The notes under the pieces are model-generated. The model saw nothing but the letters and a program-made list of their open reading frames with translations. It searched no databases and was not told the origin of the DNA. From the IMG/VR virus record IMGVR_UViG_2537562191_000063: a DNA stretch of 12,608 nucleotides; one strand, 5' to 3'. Below are positions 2,827-7,126 of the stretch, in pieces; the stretch's first letter is position 1; each line of letters starts with the position of its first letter. Position numbers and translations under genes: made by a program. The DNA is from a virus (lineage: Duplodnaviria; Heunggongvirae; Uroviricota; Caudoviricetes).

Positions 2827-3615
2827 TTACCCCCTGAAGCCTGGCGGGATCGCACTGTCCGGAAACGAGACGGTGTTAATCTGTCGGAGCAACGTCTCTG
2901 GCCGAACACCTTTCGGCGCGAACAAGCCCTGGTATTCATTGGCGATGCTGTGTCGAATCACCTGCTCAGGTGAAAAACCCTGCTGGCGGAATTTTTCCAG
3001 CTCCCGTATCGCCCCGTTAGCGCCCTGCTCCGTTCGAATCGGTTTTCGCAATGCCTGCCTGAACTGAACCCACTCATGCCAGAGTGTTTCCGGCAACCAG
3101 TCAGGCAGCTCGATAGCCTCCGGTTCGAATTTTTTAGACGCTCGTTTTTGGCGAGGGGGATTTAGGGGGAGATAAGTATTTATATCTTCCTCTTTCTCTT
3201 CCTCTGGTAACGCTTTTTGATCCGTTTTTGTAACGCTGGCAGCGTTACCTTTTCGTTTCAGTTCTCGTATTTTTGTTACTCTCTCGTTTGTAACCGCCCG
3301 TTTTTTAGAGCTTTTCCCGTTATGGCGCTCAAAGTTAGGAAGCGACAACACACCATTAGTTTCGACCAGCCATCCAACCTGAATTAACGCATCAGCAAAA
3401 CCAGCCATAAAAGTGATGCGATCTATTGCACTTTTTGTAACGCCGCGAGCGTTACACTCTGCGTTACCGTCTATCATTTGTTGATCCGCCCATGCCCAGA
3501 AGCGAATGACTTTCCCTAATGCGGCATCTGGATCAATATTCAGAATCTCAGCAAGCCTGAATATTTCCGGCTTATCCGGCGTAATAACTTCGAGCTTTAT
3601 CCAGTTTGAAGCCAT
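2827..3615 (-). CDS. ydaU: prophage replication-module protein, YdaU-like (262 aa)
   Basis: ATG at 3615-3613 with AGGTGA upstream; an in-frame TGA 3 codons upstream rules out an N-terminal extension. Immediately precedes the DnaC-like gene, in the position of lambda O relative to P. Contains the palindromic repeats described in findings. Confidence 0.7.
   Translation of the reverse strand: MASNWIKLEVITPDKPEIFRLAEILNIDPDAALGKVIRFWAWADQQMIDGNAECNARGVTKSAIDRITFMAGFADALIQVGWLVETNGVLSLPNFERHNGKSSKKRAVTNERVTKIRELKRKGNAASVTKTDQKALPEEEKEEDINTYLPLNPPRQKRASKKFEPEAIELPDWLPETLWHEWVQFRQALRKPIRTEQGANGAIRELEKFRQQGFSPEQVIRHSIANEYQGLFAPKGVRPETLLRQINTVSFPDSAIPPGFRG
3230..3248. repeat. 19-bp palindrome GTAACGCTGGCAGCGTTAC (copy 1 of 3), inside ydaU
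   Basis: Near-perfect dyad read directly from the sequence. An extra half-site GTAACGC lies at 3208-3214. Confidence 0.9.
3437..3455. repeat. 19-bp palindrome GTAACGCCGCGAGCGTTAC (copy 2 of 3), inside ydaU
   Basis: Dyad read directly from the sequence. An extra half-site GCGTTAC lies at 3461-3467. Confidence 0.9.
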
Positions 3616-3692: not shown

Positions 3693-4115
3693 TCAATGCA
3701 CTACGACAGAATCGCTAGGAGAACCGCCGCCGCTGAAATGTGCTTTACGGTAAACGGCCTGGACTGCATCATCATGCGCATCAATTGCCGTACTCAGTGC
3801 ATCCTGTGCCGCCAGTAATGCACGGCGTTCCAGGGTATCGAAGATGCAGAGTCGGTGACGCAGCTCGCGAGGAAGAATTGCCAGAACCGCAGGGATCAGT
3901 TTCTGAATTTTTTCCCTTTGCGCATTCGTTTCACCTTTCAACCAACGATGATAGATATTCTGCTGATTGTTCCAGTCCTTGCCTGGTACCAGGGGCAATT
4001 CGCCGCCCCCCTGGCGCAGATATTCTTCAGTAATTGCGTTAGCGACCCACGCCTGCCCTTTTTCGGCTGCCAGGGCTAACAACACTGATTCGATGTGCTC
4101 ATGCTTGATTTTCAT
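3693..4115 (-). CDS. ydaT: YdaT-like protein (140 aa), reported toxic/CII-like partner of YdaS
   Basis: ATG at 4115-4113 with GGGAG upstream; start overlaps the ydaS stop (ATGA), implying translational coupling. Length and sequence (MKIKHEHIESVLLALAAEKGQAWVANAITEEY...) match my recollection of Rac YdaT. Confidence 0.8.
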   Translation of the reverse strand: MKIKHEHIESVLLALAAEKGQAWVANAITEEYLRQGGGELPLVPGKDWNNQQNIYHRWLKGETNAQREKIQKLIPAVLAILPRELRHRLCIFDTLERRALLAAQDALSTAIDAHDDAVQAVYRKAHFSGGGSPSDSVVVH

Positions 4116-4366
4116 GAATCAACTCCCATCAGCTTTTTCGTAGTAGTTTTATTTCTGCCAATAGTTAAAATTGCATCGGCAGAAAATAATCCGTTTGATG
4201 CATGAGCGATTTTTTCAGCGTAATTTGTTTCGCCGGTATATTCTGTGCGAGGCAATTTACCGTTATCCATCCATTTGTAGATTGCTCTTTGGCTGACACC
4301 ACAAACGTCGGCCACAACAGAAACGCGAACAGTTTTGATTACATCTTCAAGTGTTTTCTGGTTCAT
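4112..4366 (-). CDS. ydaS: Cro-like HTH protein, YdaS family (84 aa from the ATG at 4366; the ORF is open from 4438)
   Basis: The internal ATG at 4366-4364 has GAGGGTGA 5-6 nt upstream, whereas the ATG at 4438 has none. Segment VADVCGVSQRAIYKWMDNGKLP is HTH-like. Divergent from the repressor gene. Confidence 0.7.
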   Translation of the reverse strand: MNQKTLEDVIKTVRVSVVADVCGVSQRAIYKWMDNGKLPRTEYTGETNYAEKIAHASNGLFSADAILTIGRNKTTTKKLMGVDS

Positions 4367-4380
4367 ATCACCCTCACAAT

Positions 4381-4453
4381 GTGAACTTTGAGTACATGCT
4401 ATAACAGAACTGACAGTACATTCAAGAGCGAATATCATTGAACTTATGGTTCA
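4381..4453. promoter_or_regulatory. divergent promoter/operator region (OR-like) between ydaS and the repressor gene
   Basis: Direct repeats AGTACAT at 4391-4397 and 4415-4421 (24 bp apart); TGAACTT at 4382-4388 and 4439-4445; inverted repeat TGAAC-ttatg-GTTCA (4439-4453) centred on the repressor ATG. Confidence 0.55.
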
Positions 4454-4865
4454 TGAAGATAAAGCGCGTAAAGAGTTCGCCAGTAGGCTTGCGCTAGCCT
4501 GTGAAAACGCTGGTTATGAACAACATGGAAGGCAGGCAGAAATTGCCCGTCGAATGAAATTAACACCAAAAGCGGTTAGCAAATGGTTTAATGGTGAAAC
4601 AATTCCTCGCCGAGAGAAATTAAGGGAATTAGCAACACTCATTGGAACAACACCAACCTATCTTTTGGGAGAGGATACAGAAGAAAGTGGACAGATACGT
4701 TTCTATCAGGAGTTAAATCCAAGACAAAAAATCATCATTGACCTTCTGGACGAGCTCCCTGACAGTGAGACAGATGAACTTTTAAAAACTCTTGAGGAGA
4801 AAAAACAGAAGTACAATGCAATTTACGAAGAGTTAGCACGAAAGAAAAAACAAAAAGCCTCTTAA
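4446..4865 (+). CDS. racR: XRE/CI-type prophage repressor (139 aa), RacR-like
   Basis: N-terminal HTH (GRQAEIARRMKLTPKAVSKWFNGETIP), divergent from the Cro-like gene, charged C-terminus. No SD upstream of the ATG at 4446, so the transcript may be leaderless or use a short leader. My recollection of K-12 RacR is 158 aa, so the start or allele may differ. Confidence 0.7.
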   Translation: MVHEDKARKEFASRLALACENAGYEQHGRQAEIARRMKLTPKAVSKWFNGETIPRREKLRELATLIGTTPTYLLGEDTEESGQIRFYQELNPRQKIIIDLLDELPDSETDELLKTLEEKKQKYNAIYEELARKKKQKAS

Positions 4866-4934
4866 ACCAGCATAAATCCGGTAGCGTCCCCCTCCGGGTT
4901 TGTGCTTCACTTTATCCCGTCTCATTTTTTTATA

Positions 4935-4990
4935 CATAAAATGTACTTAAAGTACTTTACAATGATGAACACAAAGTACATTATATACCT
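4935..4990 (+). promoter_or_regulatory. operator/promoter-like region (OL/PL-like) downstream of the repressor
   Basis: Same motif as at 4391/4415: 13-bp palindrome GTACTTAAAGTAC (4943-4955), inverted ATGTACT (4941-4947), AGTACT (4951-4956) and AGTACAT (4975-4981), again 24 bp apart. TTTACA at 4956-4961 could serve as a -35 element, followed by an AT-rich -10 candidate near 4980-4987. Confidence 0.5.
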
Positions 4991-5152
4991 ACCAACCCAC
5001 CCCGCCCCACAGAACGCCGGGCAATACTTCGAGTTACCAGGCAGTGGTCAGGGGTTAAGTAGCCAGCCCGAGGCGTATGAACATGACGGCGGGATTCAAA
5101 TTTTGCAGTGCAGCAGTTAGTTCCGCCACCCGGCGTTAAGGGGATAGATAAG

Positions 5153-5287
5153 ATGGTGCATTACGAAGTAGTTCAGTATTTGATGGATTGTTGCGGTATC
5201 ACTTACAACCAGGCTGTGCAGGCTTTACGCAGCAACGACTGGGATCTCTGGCAGGCAGAAGTCGCTATACGTAGCAACAAGATGTGA
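5153..5287 (+). CDS. ydaG: small prophage protein YdaG (44 aa)
   Basis: ATG at 5153 with AAGGGGA upstream; translation MVHYEVVQYLMDCCGITYNQAVQALRSNDWDLWQAEVAIRSNKM. Length matches recollected Rac YdaG. Below the ORF-track size cutoff. Confidence 0.7.
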   Translation: MVHYEVVQYLMDCCGITYNQAVQALRSNDWDLWQAEVAIRSNKM

Positions 5288-5297
5288 GATTCGCAAA

Positions 5298-5453
5298 ATG
5301 CAAAAAATCGACCTCGGCAACAACGAATCCCTGGTGTGCGGCGTGTTCCCCAACCAGGATGGAACGTTCACTGCCATGACGTATACCAAAAGCAAAACAT
5401 TTAAAACCGAAACTGGTGCGCGCCGATGGTTGGAGAAGCACACAGTAAGCTAA
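5298..5453 (+). CDS. ydaF: small prophage protein YdaF (51 aa)
   Basis: ATG at 5298; translation MQKIDLGNNESLVCGVFPNQDGTFTAMTYTKSKTFKTETGARRWLEKHTVS. Length matches recollected Rac YdaF. Its 3' end overlaps the convergent sieB 3' end by 4 nt. Confidence 0.7.
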   Translation: MQKIDLGNNESLVCGVFPNQDGTFTAMTYTKSKTFKTETGARRWLEKHTVS

Positions 5454-5938
5454 CGATTAAAACGTCTACTCCTGCTGTTCCAGAATAACTTCATAAAATG
5501 GGAGTATTTTTCGGTGACGAGATAATAAGAACAGTTTGCGCTATCACTCTGATGTTGAATGATGCCCTTCCGTTCTAATTTTTTCATAACCGGGTTACGG
5601 CAAGGAGAAGTGATAATAAGATTTCCTGTTTTAAGGAAATCTTTAAATACAGCGATTTCTTTCTCAGATAAACGAAGCAATACTCGTTGCTCTGGTAGTA
5701 ATGAATAATGCTTTTGAATATGTGCTCGCAATCTTGAGAAGGAAATGGCGACCACGAAAGAAAAGGCAAAAACGATAATCTGAAAGAGCCAAGGTATTTC
5801 AGTATAAGCATTGAATGCGACAGTAAACTCTTTCGGTATCAGCCAGAGAGTGAGACCAAAAATGATAATCGTATACATAAGTCTTTCGAGTGGCTCGTTA
5901 GCAAAAAGTTTCAACAATGGAGTAAATACATCCAACAT
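5450..5938 (-). CDS. sieB: superinfection exclusion protein B (162 aa), membrane protein
   Basis: Start taken at the internal ATG 5938-5936 (MLDVFTPLLKLFANEPLERLMYTIIIFGLTLWLIP...), with GAGAG upstream, giving 162 aa as recalled for Rac SieB. Hydrophobic segments are present. The 41-codon upstream extension in the ORF track is rejected. Confidence 0.85.
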   Translation of the reverse strand: MLDVFTPLLKLFANEPLERLMYTIIIFGLTLWLIPKEFTVAFNAYTEIPWLFQIIVFAFSFVVAISFSRLRAHIQKHYSLLPEQRVLLRLSEKEIAVFKDFLKTGNLIITSPCRNPVMKKLERKGIIQHQSDSANCSYYLVTEKYSHFMKLFWNSRSRRFNR

Positions 5939-6156
5939 ATCAATAACTCTCAACTGTAAGGGTATTGAAATGTTAACACAAGCTCTCGCTGTAGGGGTAT
6001 AGCCGAGACCACCGAAGCCCGGAGGTGGTGAAATAAAACCGGGCACAACACGAAGGCGCATTTCCGATATCCATAAAGAGTCGGTCTTGTCTGTTAAATT
6101 TAAATGGTGGGAGTGCGCCTCCGGTTGTAAATAACGACATTGCTGTGTGTAGTCCT

Positions 6157-6204
6157 GGCGGCATCAGTTTTTTTCTTGAAGTTCGGCTGATGTCCGCCCT
6201 TTTT
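6157..6204 (+). terminator. candidate intrinsic terminator in the sieB-kilR spacer
   Basis: GGCGGCATCAG (6157-6167) pairs with CTGATGTCCGCC (6187-6198) as an 11-bp stem with one bulge; loop is 19 nt; followed by CTTTTTAAAG. On the minus strand no U-tract follows. Confidence 0.45.
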
Positions 6205-6379
6205 AAAGTGAATTTTGTGATGCGGTGAATGCGGCTAAGCGCACGTGGCACAGTTAAAAGTCATGTTAGTCCTTATTGGTTTGGGTGGGAAAGCCGACTG
6301 TAATTGTTAACTGGTTGCAGTCACCTGGAGGCACCAGGCACCGCATCAACAAAGTTCATTTGTAAAAATGGAGATAATT

Positions 6380-6601
6380 ATGATTGCACATCACTTCGGA
6401 ACTGATGAAATACCACGTCAGTGTGTGACTCCTGGCGATTATGTTCTTCATGAAGGCCGGACATATATTGCCTCGGCAAACAATATTAAAAAGCGAAAAC
6501 TATATATTCGTAACCTGACCACAAAAACATGCATTACTGACCGCATGATTAAAGTCTTCCTCGGTCGTGATGGTTTACCTGTAAAGGCGGAGTCATGGTG
6601 A
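6380..6601 (+). CDS. kilR: KilR, FtsZ-targeting cell-division inhibitor (73 aa)
   Basis: ATG at 6380 with GGAGA 7 nt upstream; [73 protein letters not shown] matches recollected KilR. Confidence 0.85.
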
Positions 6602-6771
6602 TGACTAAGAAAATAAAATGTGCTTACCACCTTTGCAAAAAAGACGTTGAAGAAAGCAAAGCTATTGAAAGAATGCTTCACTTCATGCACGGGATTTTAT
6701 CAAAAGACGAACCGAGAAAATATTGCAGTGAAGCTTGTGCCGAAAAAGACCAGATGGCACATGAACTTTAA
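6601..6771 (+). CDS. ydaE: YdaE (56 aa), Cys/His-rich small protein
   Basis: ATG at 6601 overlaps the kilR stop (TGATG); [56 protein letters not shown]. Below the ORF-track cutoff. Confidence 0.75.
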   Translation: MTKKIKCAYHLCKKDVEESKAIERMLHFMHGILSKDEPRKYCSEACAEKDQMAHEL

Positions 6772-6845
6772 TTAATTGACTATTCGAAACTGAATTTATG
6801 CCAGAAATGGCAGGTATTCGCTCAACCTTAATTAAGGAGAAAAAC

Positions 6846-7121
6846 ATGATTACCAATTATGAAGCCACTGTTGTAACTACCGATGACATTGTTCACGAGG
6901 TGAATCTGGAAGGAAAGCGCATTGGCTACGTAATTAAAACAGAAAATAAAGAAACCCCATTCACTGTGGTTGATATCGATGGTCCATCAGGCAACGTAAA
7001 AACACTTGATGAAGGTGTCAAAAAAATGTGCCTGGTGCATATCGGAAAGAATCTGCCCACAGAAAAAAAAGCCGAATTTCTGGCAACTCTAATTGCAATG
7101 AAATTAAAAGGTGAAATCTGA
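6846..7121 (+). CDS. racC: RacC (91 aa)
   Basis: ATG at 6846 with AAGGAG upstream; MITNYEATVVTTDDIVHEVNLEGKRIGYVIKTENKETPF... Length matches recollected RacC; the ORF-track start at 6798 is rejected. Confidence 0.85.
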   Translation: MITNYEATVVTTDDIVHEVNLEGKRIGYVIKTENKETPFTVVDIDGPSGNVKTLDEGVKKMCLVHIGKNLPTEKKAEFLATLIAMKLKGEI

Positions 7122-7126
7122 AAGAA

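What the first reader, a model, noticed from the sequence alone, without database searches (positions are those of the whole stretch)
4381..4990. Repressor gene flanked on both sides by the same AGTACAT motif with identical 24-bp spacing
Upstream of the repressor, in the spacer shared with divergent ydaS, AGTACAT occurs at 4391 and 4415. Downstream, after the repressor stop and before ydaG, the same motif occurs at 4951 (AGTACT) and 4975 (AGTACAT), plus an inverted copy at 4941-4947 that creates the 13-bp palindrome GTACTTAAAGTAC. This mirrors lambda, where OR and OL flank cI, and places a PL-like promoter heading the silent ydaG...kilR...recET...int operon. The repressor ATG sits at the centre of TGAAC-N5-GTTCA with no SD, suggesting a leaderless or autoregulated transcript.
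Basis: partly seen in the sequence, partly recalled or inferred. Interest (0 to 1): 0.55.

Follow-up and report, generated by a model that had tools for sequence, protein, structure and literature searches.

The report
HK022-type phage repressor operators, both sides
The repeated AGTACAT words are real, but they are pieces of five 15-base repressor-binding sites laid out as in the studied phage HK022, so this is an ordinary, previously unremarked prophage on/off switch.

Summary
AGTACAT occurs only 4 times in the window, all beside the repressor gene, against 0.77 expected.

The motif is incomplete, though. AGTACAT is the right arm of a 15-bp inverted repeat, TGWAC-N5-GTWCA. There are three copies upstream (4382-4396, 4406-4420, 4439-4453) and two downstream (4942-4956, 4966-4980).

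Sequence, spacing (24 and 33 bp; 24 bp) and overlap with promoters match the oR and oL sites annotated in phage HK022. The repressor's DNA-binding domain is 46% identical to HK022 CI. The "YdaS" gene is 62% identical to HK022 Cro. The same layout recurs in 22 of 35 loci retrieved by protein similarity alone.

K-12 Rac is 98.9% identical from 4990 onward but differs across 4122-4989. There it carries RacR-type sites around its own promoter.

So the lambda-like OR/OL, PL and leaderless reading is supported. It is a new member of a known kind. The modest novelty is that the repressor lacks the S24 self-cleavage domain.

The parts
4382..4396 (.). OR1-equivalent operator TGAACTTTGAGTACA.
   Evidence: It aligns with the HK022 oR site at 3057-3071. 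It sits 64 bp before the ATG in relatives.
4406..4420 (.). OR2-equivalent operator AGAACTGACAGTACA.
   Evidence: It aligns with the HK022 oR site at 3033-3047 (GGAACTGATAGTACA). It sits 40 bp before the ATG in relatives.
4439..4453 (.). OR3-equivalent operator TGAACTTATGGTTCA, a perfect inverted repeat with the repressor ATG (4446-4448) at its centre.
   Evidence: It is identical in sequence to the HK022 oR site at 3000-3014, which covers the cI ATG. It sits 7 bp before the ATG in relatives.
4433..4438 (+). Repressor promoter (PRM-like) -10 hexamer TATCAT, paired with the -35-like CTGACA at 4410-4415 across a 17-bp spacer. Only 7 nt separate it from the ATG and there is no Shine-Dalgarno sequence, which implies a leaderless mRNA.
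   Evidence: Promoter scan, 10 of 12 matches. TATnAT is conserved at this exact offset in 28 distinct relatives.
4398..4425 (-). PR-like promoter for ydaS(cro)-ydaT: -35 TTGAAT (4425-4420) and -10 TATAGC (4403-4398) preceded by TGT (an extended -10), with a 16-bp spacer.
   Evidence: Position-for-position alignment with HK022's annotated pR -35 TTGACT and -10 CATAAT. The consensus scan did not find it.
4446..4865 (+). Repressor, 139 aa: an HTH_3 DNA-binding domain (residues about 2-74), a flexible linker, then a short helical C-terminal domain. It has no S24 peptidase domain.
   Evidence: Pfam. It is 46% identical to HK022 CI over residues 4-102, E = 9e-32. Family alignment. Structure model with pLDDT 83.8.
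4112..4366 (-). Cro-like regulator, annotated as YdaS-like or helix-turn-helix, transcribed divergently from the repressor.
   Evidence: 62% identical to HK022 Cro, E = 1e-34. RefSeq annotation.
4942..4956 (.). OL2-equivalent operator TGTACTTAAAGTACT.
   Evidence: It aligns with the HK022 oL site at 2225-2239 (TGTACTATTGGTACT). It is conserved in 22 distinct loci.
4966..4980 (.). OL1-equivalent operator TGAACACAAAGTACA, overlapping the PL -10.
   Evidence: It aligns with the HK022 oL site at 2201-2215 (TGAACTTTAAGTACA).
4956..4984 (+). PL-like promoter: -35 TTTACA, 17-bp spacer, -10 CATTAT. The predicted start is near 4991, heading the leftward operon (small ORFs, kilR, recE, recT, xis, int).
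   Evidence: Promoter scan. It matches HK022's annotated pL, TTTACA / CATCAT. Homology to K-12 Rac begins at 4990.
4122..4989 (.). Exchangeable immunity cassette (cro-like gene, OR, repressor, OL and PL hexamers) that replaces the racR-type cassette of K-12 Rac.
   Evidence: blastn against MG1655 Rac matches 3695-4121 at 92.5% and 4990-12608 at 98.9%, with nothing in between.

Best explanation
The region is the genetic switch of a Rac-like prophage that carries an HK022-type immunity cassette.

The 139-aa repressor most likely binds as a dimer to 15-bp inverted repeats, TGWAC-N5-GTWCA. Three lie in the 79-bp gap between the repressor gene and the divergent cro-like gene: OR1 4382-4396, OR2 4406-4420 and OR3 4439-4453, with centres 24 and 33 bp apart. 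Two lie just past the repressor stop codon: OL2 4942-4956 and OL1 4966-4980, with centres 24 bp apart.

OR1 and OR2 overlap the promoter of the cro-like and ydaT genes. OL2 and OL1 overlap the -35 and -10 of a PL-like promoter that reads into kilR, recET, xis and int. Occupied sites would therefore keep both early operons silent.

OR3 covers the start of the repressor's own mRNA and would give negative autoregulation at high repressor levels. That mRNA most likely begins at or next to the A of the ATG, making it leaderless. The cro-like protein probably uses the same sites.

Shown here: the sites, their spacing, their homology to HK022's annotated sites, their conservation, and the homology of both proteins. 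Inferred: binding by this particular protein, cooperativity between neighbouring sites, any OL-OR looping, and the transcript starts.
For: 1. Enrichment. Five of the six window matches to TGWAC-N5-GTWCA flank the repressor gene, against 1.2 expected.

2. HK022. The HK022 record X16093.1 annotates 15-bp repressor sites with the same sequences and geometry. There are three at oR, spaced 24 and 33 bp, one of them over the cI ATG. There are two at oL, spaced 24 bp, overlapping the pL -35 TTTACA and the -10. Window OR3 is identical to the HK022 site TGAACTTATGGTTCA. The OL/PL stretch aligns almost base for base.

3. Proteins. The repressor N-terminal domain is 46% identical to HK022 CI, with recognition helix TPKAVSKWFNGE against TPKAISKWFNGE. 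The cro-like protein is 62% identical to HK022 Cro.

4. Conservation. Of 35 loci retrieved by protein similarity alone, 22 keep three sites with 24/33-bp spacing and the ATG inside the third. Eight more keep the two outer sites 57-58 bp apart. Half-sites stay fixed while the N5 spacers vary.

5. The downstream pair follows the promoter, not the gene end. It lies 497 to about 2,900 bp from the ATG, depending on inserted genes (higBA, an AAA ATPase), and always keeps the form OL2/TTTACA/OL1/CATnAT.

6. Co-variation of repressor and sites. K-12 Rac is 98.9% identical from 4990 onward but unrelated across 4122-4989. At the equivalent spot it has two RacR-type sites (TAGGC-n3-GCCTA, the consensus footprinted in PMC9638921) 25 bp apart around TTGACA/TATAGT.

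7. Literature. HK022 CI binds adjacent operators cooperatively and loops OL to OR (PMC8053113). Silencing racR in K-12 derepresses ydaG, kilR, recE, recT, xisR and intR (bioRxiv 10.64898/2026.09.06.749655).
Against: There are no binding or transcript data for this protein or these exact sites. The C-terminal domain that gives HK022 CI its cooperativity is replaced here, so pairwise cooperativity and looping cannot be assumed. OR2 fully overlaps the -35-like hexamer of the repressor promoter, so it is unclear whether bound repressor activates or shuts its own promoter. The PR -10 (TATAGC) is poor and was missed by the consensus scan. HK022's third left operator, 53 bp from OL2, has no counterpart in the window (and direct reading). 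The conservation tables were built from sites selected by pattern, so half-site invariance is partly built in; the fixed offsets are not.
Confidence: 0.85

Rival explanations
1. The recognition unit is the 7-bp word AGTACAT in direct repeat, read by tandemly bound monomers 24 bp apart. The palindrome over the ATG would then be an unrelated feature.
For: AGTACAT is exact at 4391, 4415 and 4975 in one orientation, with identical 24-bp spacing.
Against: In relatives the final T and the preceding A vary. AGTACAT is kept at OR1 in only 16 of 28 distinct sequences, and OR2 reads AGTTCA in 10. The left arm TGAAC, 5 bp upstream, is conserved at every site. OL2 has two GTAC arms and no AGTACAT on the + strand. 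HK022 annotates 15-bp symmetric sites. The flanking T is explained by adjacent promoter hexamers.
Confidence: 0.04
2. The sites are used mainly or only by the cro-like YdaS protein (a lytic-cycle repressor), and the 139-aa protein acts elsewhere or is inactive.
For: The cro-like protein is closer to its HK022 counterpart (62%) than the repressor is (46%). In CP-933P both PaaR2 and YdaS footprint the same region (PMC8630535).
Against: The repressor's recognition helix is nearly identical to that of HK022 CI and is invariant across relatives that keep the same sites. The repressor ORF is intact and 99-100% identical in deposited phage genomes. Shared use by both proteins is the norm in lambdoid switches, so this is a complement rather than a rival.
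Confidence: 0.06
3. The sites are inherited relics in a defective prophage. They are conserved by descent from an HK022-like ancestor but no longer regulate anything.
For: Rac-type prophages are largely cryptic. The PR -10 is weak, and the third left operator is missing.
Against: All five sites retain intact half-sites. The cassette covers at least 80% of the 1.2-kb query in 1,042 of 5,426 complete E. coli genomes, mostly at 99% identity or more. It is present in phage records Tritos and vB_EcoS-673R7. In K-12 the analogous repressor is essential because it silences toxic neighbours (PMC5700373).
Confidence: 0.05

Closest known systems
Phage HK022 immunity region (cI, cro, oR1-3, oL, pL, pR; record X16093.1; my recollection is that the repressor's binding was characterised by Carlson & Little 1993, which PMC8053113 cites)
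   Same: The 15-bp operator family is the same, and one site is identical. The 3 + 2 layout, the 24/33 and 24 bp spacings, a site over the repressor ATG, and oL sites overlapping a TTTACA -35 and a CATnAT -10 all match. The repressor DNA-binding domain and Cro are homologous.
   Different: The window repressor is 139 aa with a short helical C-terminal domain, whereas the HK022 cI reading frame translates to 235 aa (its S24 assignment rests on the precomputed Pfam domains of the 235-240-aa relatives). There is no counterpart of the HK022 oL3 site, 53 bp away. The leader after PL lacks the HK022 put sequence. A YdaT-type protein takes the place of lambda-type cII. The cassette sits in a Rac-type prophage at ttcA.
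E. coli K-12 Rac prophage racR-ydaS switch (PMC9638921, PMC5700373)
   Same: It occupies the same chromosomal prophage and position, with the same flanking genes at 92-99% identity. It has three operators between divergent repressor and ydaS genes, with the third over the repressor ATG (PMC9638921).
   Different: The repressor is unrelated (158 aa) and the operator consensus differs (TAGGC-n3-GCCTA). The cassette at 4122-4989 is not homologous.
CP-933P PaaR2/YdaS/YdaT switch of E. coli O157:H7 (PMC8630535)
   Same: It has a short repressor (about 15 kDa with its His tag), operators on both sides (OR and OL), a PL-like promoter repressed about 100-fold, a repressor mRNA shown to be leaderless, and a YdaT cII analogue.
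   Different: Its operator sequence differs (GTTTAGTAA-type 18-bp repeats), and a toxin-antitoxin pair lies downstream of the repressor. Sequence similarity between PaaR2 and the window repressor was not tested here.
933W / phi24B Stx-phage repressor and operators (record EF517298.1)
   Same: The N-terminal domain is 51% identical over 73 aa. It has three OR and only two OL sites, OR3 lies at the cI start, and the half-sites are related (CGTAC...GTACG).
   Different: The half-site sequence differs and the cI reading frame is 236 codons, so heteroimmunity is likely.

Membership tests
HK022-type lambdoid immunity region | The repressor's DNA-binding domain is homologous to HK022 CI, with a matching recognition helix. 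| tested here: met
   BLASTP gives 46% identity over 99 aa, E = 9e-32, with TPKAVSKWFNGE against TPKAISKWFNGE. tblastn hits to HK022 records.
HK022-type lambdoid immunity region | A divergently transcribed Cro homologous to HK022 Cro. | tested here: met
   62% identity over 73 aa, E = 1e-34.
HK022-type lambdoid immunity region | 15-bp symmetric operators of the form TGWAC-N5-GTWCA. | tested here: met
   Five sites with 0-1 mismatch. The HK022 annotated sites read TGAACTTATGGTTCA, GGAACTGATAGTACA, TGTACTATTGGTACT and TGAACTTTAAGTACA.
HK022-type lambdoid immunity region | Three right operators with centres 24 and 33 bp apart, the third over the repressor start codon. | tested here: met
   Window centres are 4389, 4413 and 4446. 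The HK022 sites are at 3057-3071, 3033-3047 and 3000-3014.
HK022-type lambdoid immunity region | Two left operators 24 bp apart that overlap the pL -35 and -10. | tested here: met
   Window sites at 4942-4956 and 4966-4980, with TTTACA-17-CATTAT. HK022 sites at 2225-2239 and 2201-2215, with TTTACA/CATCAT.
HK022-type lambdoid immunity region | A C-terminal S24 (LexA-like) self-cleavage and oligomerisation domain in the repressor. | tested here: not met
   Pfam finds only helix-turn-helix families. The alignment shows the S24 part missing, replaced by about 55 helical residues.
HK022-type lambdoid immunity region | A third left operator about 53 bp from OL2, and a distal operator beyond cro (both described in PMC8053113). 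| tested here: not met
   No match with up to 2 mismatches at the expected positions. Relatives L005 and L012 do have a site at 53 bp.
HK022-type lambdoid immunity region | Binding of the repressor to these sites, and cooperativity between neighbours. | not testable with these tools
   This needs EMSA or footprinting with the purified 139-aa protein.
Leaderless repressor mRNA (as lambda cI from PRM, and paaR2) | The transcript starts at or within a base or two of the A of the start codon, with no Shine-Dalgarno sequence. | tested here: inconclusive
   The -10 TATCAT ends 7 nt before the ATG and no purine-rich stretch lies between. The same geometry is conserved in 28 relatives. No 5' end data exist.
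K-12 RacR-type switch | A RacR homologue and TAGGC-n3-GCCTA operators. | tested here: not met
   There is no DNA homology across 4122-4989. The window sites belong to a different family (consensus from PMC9638921).

The most novel reading that the evidence does not exclude
The 139-aa protein may be a domain-swapped HK022-specificity repressor. It keeps the operator code of an SOS-inducible phage family but has exchanged the RecA-sensitive S24 domain for a short helical hook, a SinR-like layout. The prophage would then be uninducible by DNA damage, controlled instead by an antirepressor or not at all. It could also give its host, about a fifth of complete E. coli genomes, standing immunity against HK022-type phages that share the same operators.
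Probability: 0.3. Interest if true: 0.45.

Novelty: new member of a known kind. Interest (0 to 1): 0.27.

Why it matters
It gives a sequence-level map of the switch that silences toxic and recombination genes (ydaS/ydaT, kilR, recET) in the Rac-type prophage of many Shiga-toxin-producing and other E. coli. At least 80% of the 1.2-kb region around the cassette is found in 1,042 of 5,426 complete genomes.

It shows that Rac prophages come in at least two immunity types that swap as a cassette. That cassette is bounded by the ydaT start and the PL transcript start.

It also makes testable predictions. One is cross-immunity with HK022. Another is RecA-independent control. A third asks whether cooperativity and looping survive replacement of the repressor's C-terminal domain. 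None of this changes how lambdoid switches are understood.

Tried and rejected
1. AGTACAT as the unit. Rejected in favour of the 15-bp inverted repeat after the family comparison.

2. K-12 RacR operators. These are a different consensus and a different protein (PMC9638921).

3. A third left operator at the HK022 distance, and a distal operator beyond cro. Nothing was found with up to 2 mismatches.

4. An intrinsic terminator after the repressor gene. The scan found none. A 7-bp stem near 4876-4899, seen by eye, is weak and was not pursued.

5. Rfam. At gathering thresholds only RalA at 10874-11052 matched. A permissive search of 4860-5200 gave only chance-level hits, including JUMPstart at E = 1.3.

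6. A put-like or other structured RNA in the PL leader. The single-sequence fold has z = -1.57 and the six-sequence consensus fold is weak (-6.4 kcal/mol), so this is inconclusive.

7. Solved structures and fold search for the C-terminal domain. Only generic XRE-type helix-turn-helix matches and weak coiled-coil resemblance came back.

8. The Carlson & Little J Bacteriol 1993 paper (PMC206910) is not held. The details of HK022 footprinting therefore rest on the GenBank annotation and on PMC8053113.

Full report
**What the window is.** The 1.2 kb around the finding is 100% identical to chromosomes of many Shiga-toxin-producing E. coli. At least 80% of it is present in 1,042 of 5,426 complete genomes. 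RefSeq annotation of one such genome shows a Rac-type prophage next to ttcA. In window coordinates the genes are ydaT (3693-4115, minus strand), a helix-turn-helix gene (4112-4366, minus) and a 139-aa helix-turn-helix protein (4446-4865, plus). Two small ORFs, sieB, kilR, recE, recT, ralR, xisR and intR follow.

**Checking the observation.** AGTACAT occurs four times in the window, at 4391, 4415 and 4975 on the plus strand and 4941 on the minus strand. The expected number is 0.77, and 1 of 200 shuffles reaches four. The bare core AGTAC is only mildly enriched, with 19 matches against 11.8 expected. The signal therefore lies in a longer word.

**The real unit.** Lining up the copies shows a conserved GAAC four bases upstream of each AGTACAT. 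GAAC-N4-AGTACAT gives 4 matches against 0.15 expected, reached by 0 of 200 shuffles. The repeat finder reports a 22-nt family at 4382, 4406 and 4966.
- The unit is a 15-bp imperfect inverted repeat, TGWAC-N5-GTWCA.
- With up to one mismatch it occurs six times in the window against 1.2 expected. Five of these are at 4382-4396, 4406-4420, 4439-4453, 4942-4956 and 4966-4980.
- The centres are 24 and 33 bp apart upstream, and 24 bp apart downstream.

**Identification with HK022.** A tblastn search of phage records finds the same protein, at 99-100% identity, in phages Tritos and vB_EcoS-673R7. Its N-terminal domain also matches HK022 CI at 46.5% and 933W/phi24B CI at 50.7%.
- The HK022 record X16093.1 annotates three 15-bp repressor sites at oR: 3000-3014 (over the cI ATG), 3033-3047 and 3057-3071.
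- It annotates two at oL, 2201-2215 and 2225-2239. These overlap the pL -10 and the -35 TTTACA.
- The site sequences are TGAACTTATGGTTCA, GGAACTGATAGTACA, TGAACTTATGGTTCA, TGTACTATTGGTACT and TGAACTTTAAGTACA.
- This is the same family, the same spacings and the same promoter overlaps as in the window, and one site is identical. The OL/PL stretch aligns almost base for base, and the OR stretch aligns throughout.
- The window repressor is 46% identical to HK022 CI over residues 4-102 (E = 9e-32) with a near-identical recognition helix.
- The gene annotated as YdaS-like is 62% identical to HK022 Cro.
- PMC8053113 states that HK022 CI binds cooperatively to adjacent operators in OR and OL, and shows that it loops OL to OR.

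**Conservation.** A protein search found relatives with the same N-terminal domain, fused either to a short C-terminus or to an S24 peptidase domain. In Salmonella, Raoultella and metagenome contigs the same three sites lie at identical offsets before the ATG. Where the contig extends far enough, a downstream pair is present as well.
- A scan of one genome per species returned 35 loci by protein similarity alone.
- Twenty-two of them keep three sites with 24/33-bp spacing, with the ATG at the centre of the third. They span Enterobacterales, Vibrionaceae, Pseudomonas, Salinicola and Pseudooceanicola.
- Eight Pasteurellaceae loci keep two sites 57-58 bp apart.
- Across 28 distinct OR sequences the half-sites are fixed while the spacers vary. 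A TATnAT hexamer sits exactly 7 nt before the ATG.
- The half-site invariance is partly a consequence of how the sites were picked. The fixed offsets are not.
- AGTACAT itself survives at the first site in only 16 of the 28.

**The downstream pair belongs to a promoter, not to the gene end.** In 22 distinct loci, including HK022, the module reads OL2, TTTACA, OL1, CATnAT. Its distance from the repressor ATG is 497 bp in the window and 769 bp in HK022. Where other genes such as higBA or an AAA ATPase are inserted after the repressor, it is 1,300 to about 2,900 bp. The one "mismatch" in OL2, a final T, is conserved because that base is the first T of the -35.

**Comparison with K-12 Rac.** blastn of the window against MG1655 Rac gives 92.5% identity over 3695-4121 and 98.9% over 4990-12608. 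Nothing matches between those blocks. The cassette 4122-4989 is therefore exchanged as a unit, and its right edge falls just after the PL -10. At the equivalent place K-12 reads TTAGGCATAGCCTATTGACAATCAATTAGGCATTACCTATAGT. That is two sites of the footprinted RacR consensus TAGGC-n3-GCCTA (PMC9638921), 25 bp apart, around TTGACA and TATAGT. Each repressor type thus has its own sites on both sides of its gene. This is the strongest internal support for the OR/OL reading. A 2026 preprint reports that silencing racR in K-12 derepresses ydaG, kilR, recE, recT, xisR and intR (10.64898/2026.09.06.749655).

**How it most likely works.** Repressor dimers on OR1 and OR2 would block the promoter of the cro-like and ydaT genes. 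Its -35 TTGAAT (4425-4420) and -10 TATAGC (4403-4398, preceded by TGT) were placed by alignment with HK022 pR.
- Dimers on OL2 and OL1 would block PL (TTTACA 4956-4961, 17-bp spacer, CATTAT 4979-4984).
- OR3 covers the start of the repressor transcript and would shut the repressor promoter at high repressor levels.
- That promoter (CTGACA at 4410, 17-bp spacer, TATCAT ending at 4438) leaves 7 nt before the ATG and no Shine-Dalgarno sequence, so the mRNA is probably leaderless. This has been shown by 5' RACE and N-terminal sequencing for paaR2 (PMC8630535).
- These steps are inferred from homology and geometry. None has been measured for this protein.
- It is unclear whether OR2 occupancy helps or hinders the repressor promoter, because OR2 contains the -35-like hexamer.

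**What differs from HK022.** The repressor lacks the S24 domain. The model shows a five-helix DNA-binding domain, a disordered linker at residues 77-86 and a helical hairpin at 92-138 (pLDDT 83.8). Structure matches are generic XRE-type regulators, some with helical C-terminal extensions such as SinR. Self-cleavage stimulated by RecA is therefore unlikely, and cooperativity must rest on a different interface. There is no third left operator. The PL leader is not the HK022 put sequence.

**Verdict.** The motif was mis-delimited, and the system is a recognisable HK022-type switch. It is a new member of a known kind and of modest interest.

Noticed in passing
window 4105-4122: A perfect TTGATT-N6-AATCAA inverted repeat (TTGATTTTCATGAATCAA) straddles the ydaS stop and the ydaT start codon. 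This is exactly the site recognised by CP-933P YdaT, the cII analogue (PMC9986795). It also marks the left edge of the exchangeable immunity cassette. It probably belongs to a PRE-like promoter reading toward the repressor, as reported for K-12 (PMC11879457).
   Followed up: partly
window 4446-4865 (residues 77-139 of the product): The repressor shares its DNA-binding domain with S24-peptidase repressors of Raoultella, Klebsiella and HK022. Its C-terminus is replaced by a helical hairpin of about 55 residues, and Salmonella relatives share this short form. That suggests control independent of RecA cleavage.
   Followed up: partly
window 4991-5153: A GC-rich, roughly 160-nt untranslated leader follows PL. 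In relatives this slot is modular: some carry the HK022 put sequence, some a boxA-like CTCTTTAACAA, and a third type is shared by the window, Shigella L010, phage Tritos and, more distantly, Salmonella L002/L003. There are hints of compensatory changes around AAGTAGCC...GCCCG/CGGGA, but the folding support is weak (z = -1.57).
   Followed up: partly
L048 (K-12 MG1655 Rac), reverse strand, just upstream of the point homologous to window 4990: Two RacR-consensus sites, TTAGGCATAGCCTAT and TTAGGCATTACCTAT, lie 25 bp apart around TTGACA and TATAGT, between racR and ydaG. This looks like an OL/PL for K-12 Rac. PMC9638921 never mentions ydaG (0 occurrences), and no description of these sites turned up in the passages read from the other Rac papers.
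   Followed up: partly
window 4933-4947: A further GTACT arm is shared with OL2, 9 bp out of register (TACATAAAATGTACT). In Raoultella L005 the same position is a good overlapping site (TGAACAAAATGTACT). In the window its left arm is degenerate.
   Followed up: no
window 10874-11052, minus strand: The RalA antitoxin sRNA (Rfam RF02694, 225 bits) lies opposite ralR, as in K-12 Rac.
   Followed up: no
L002 3553-4220 and L005 3808-5250: Relatives carry extra genes between the repressor and OL: a higB/higA-like toxin-antitoxin pair in Salmonella and a 480-aa AAA ATPase in Raoultella. This is the slot where lambda carries rexAB.
   Followed up: no
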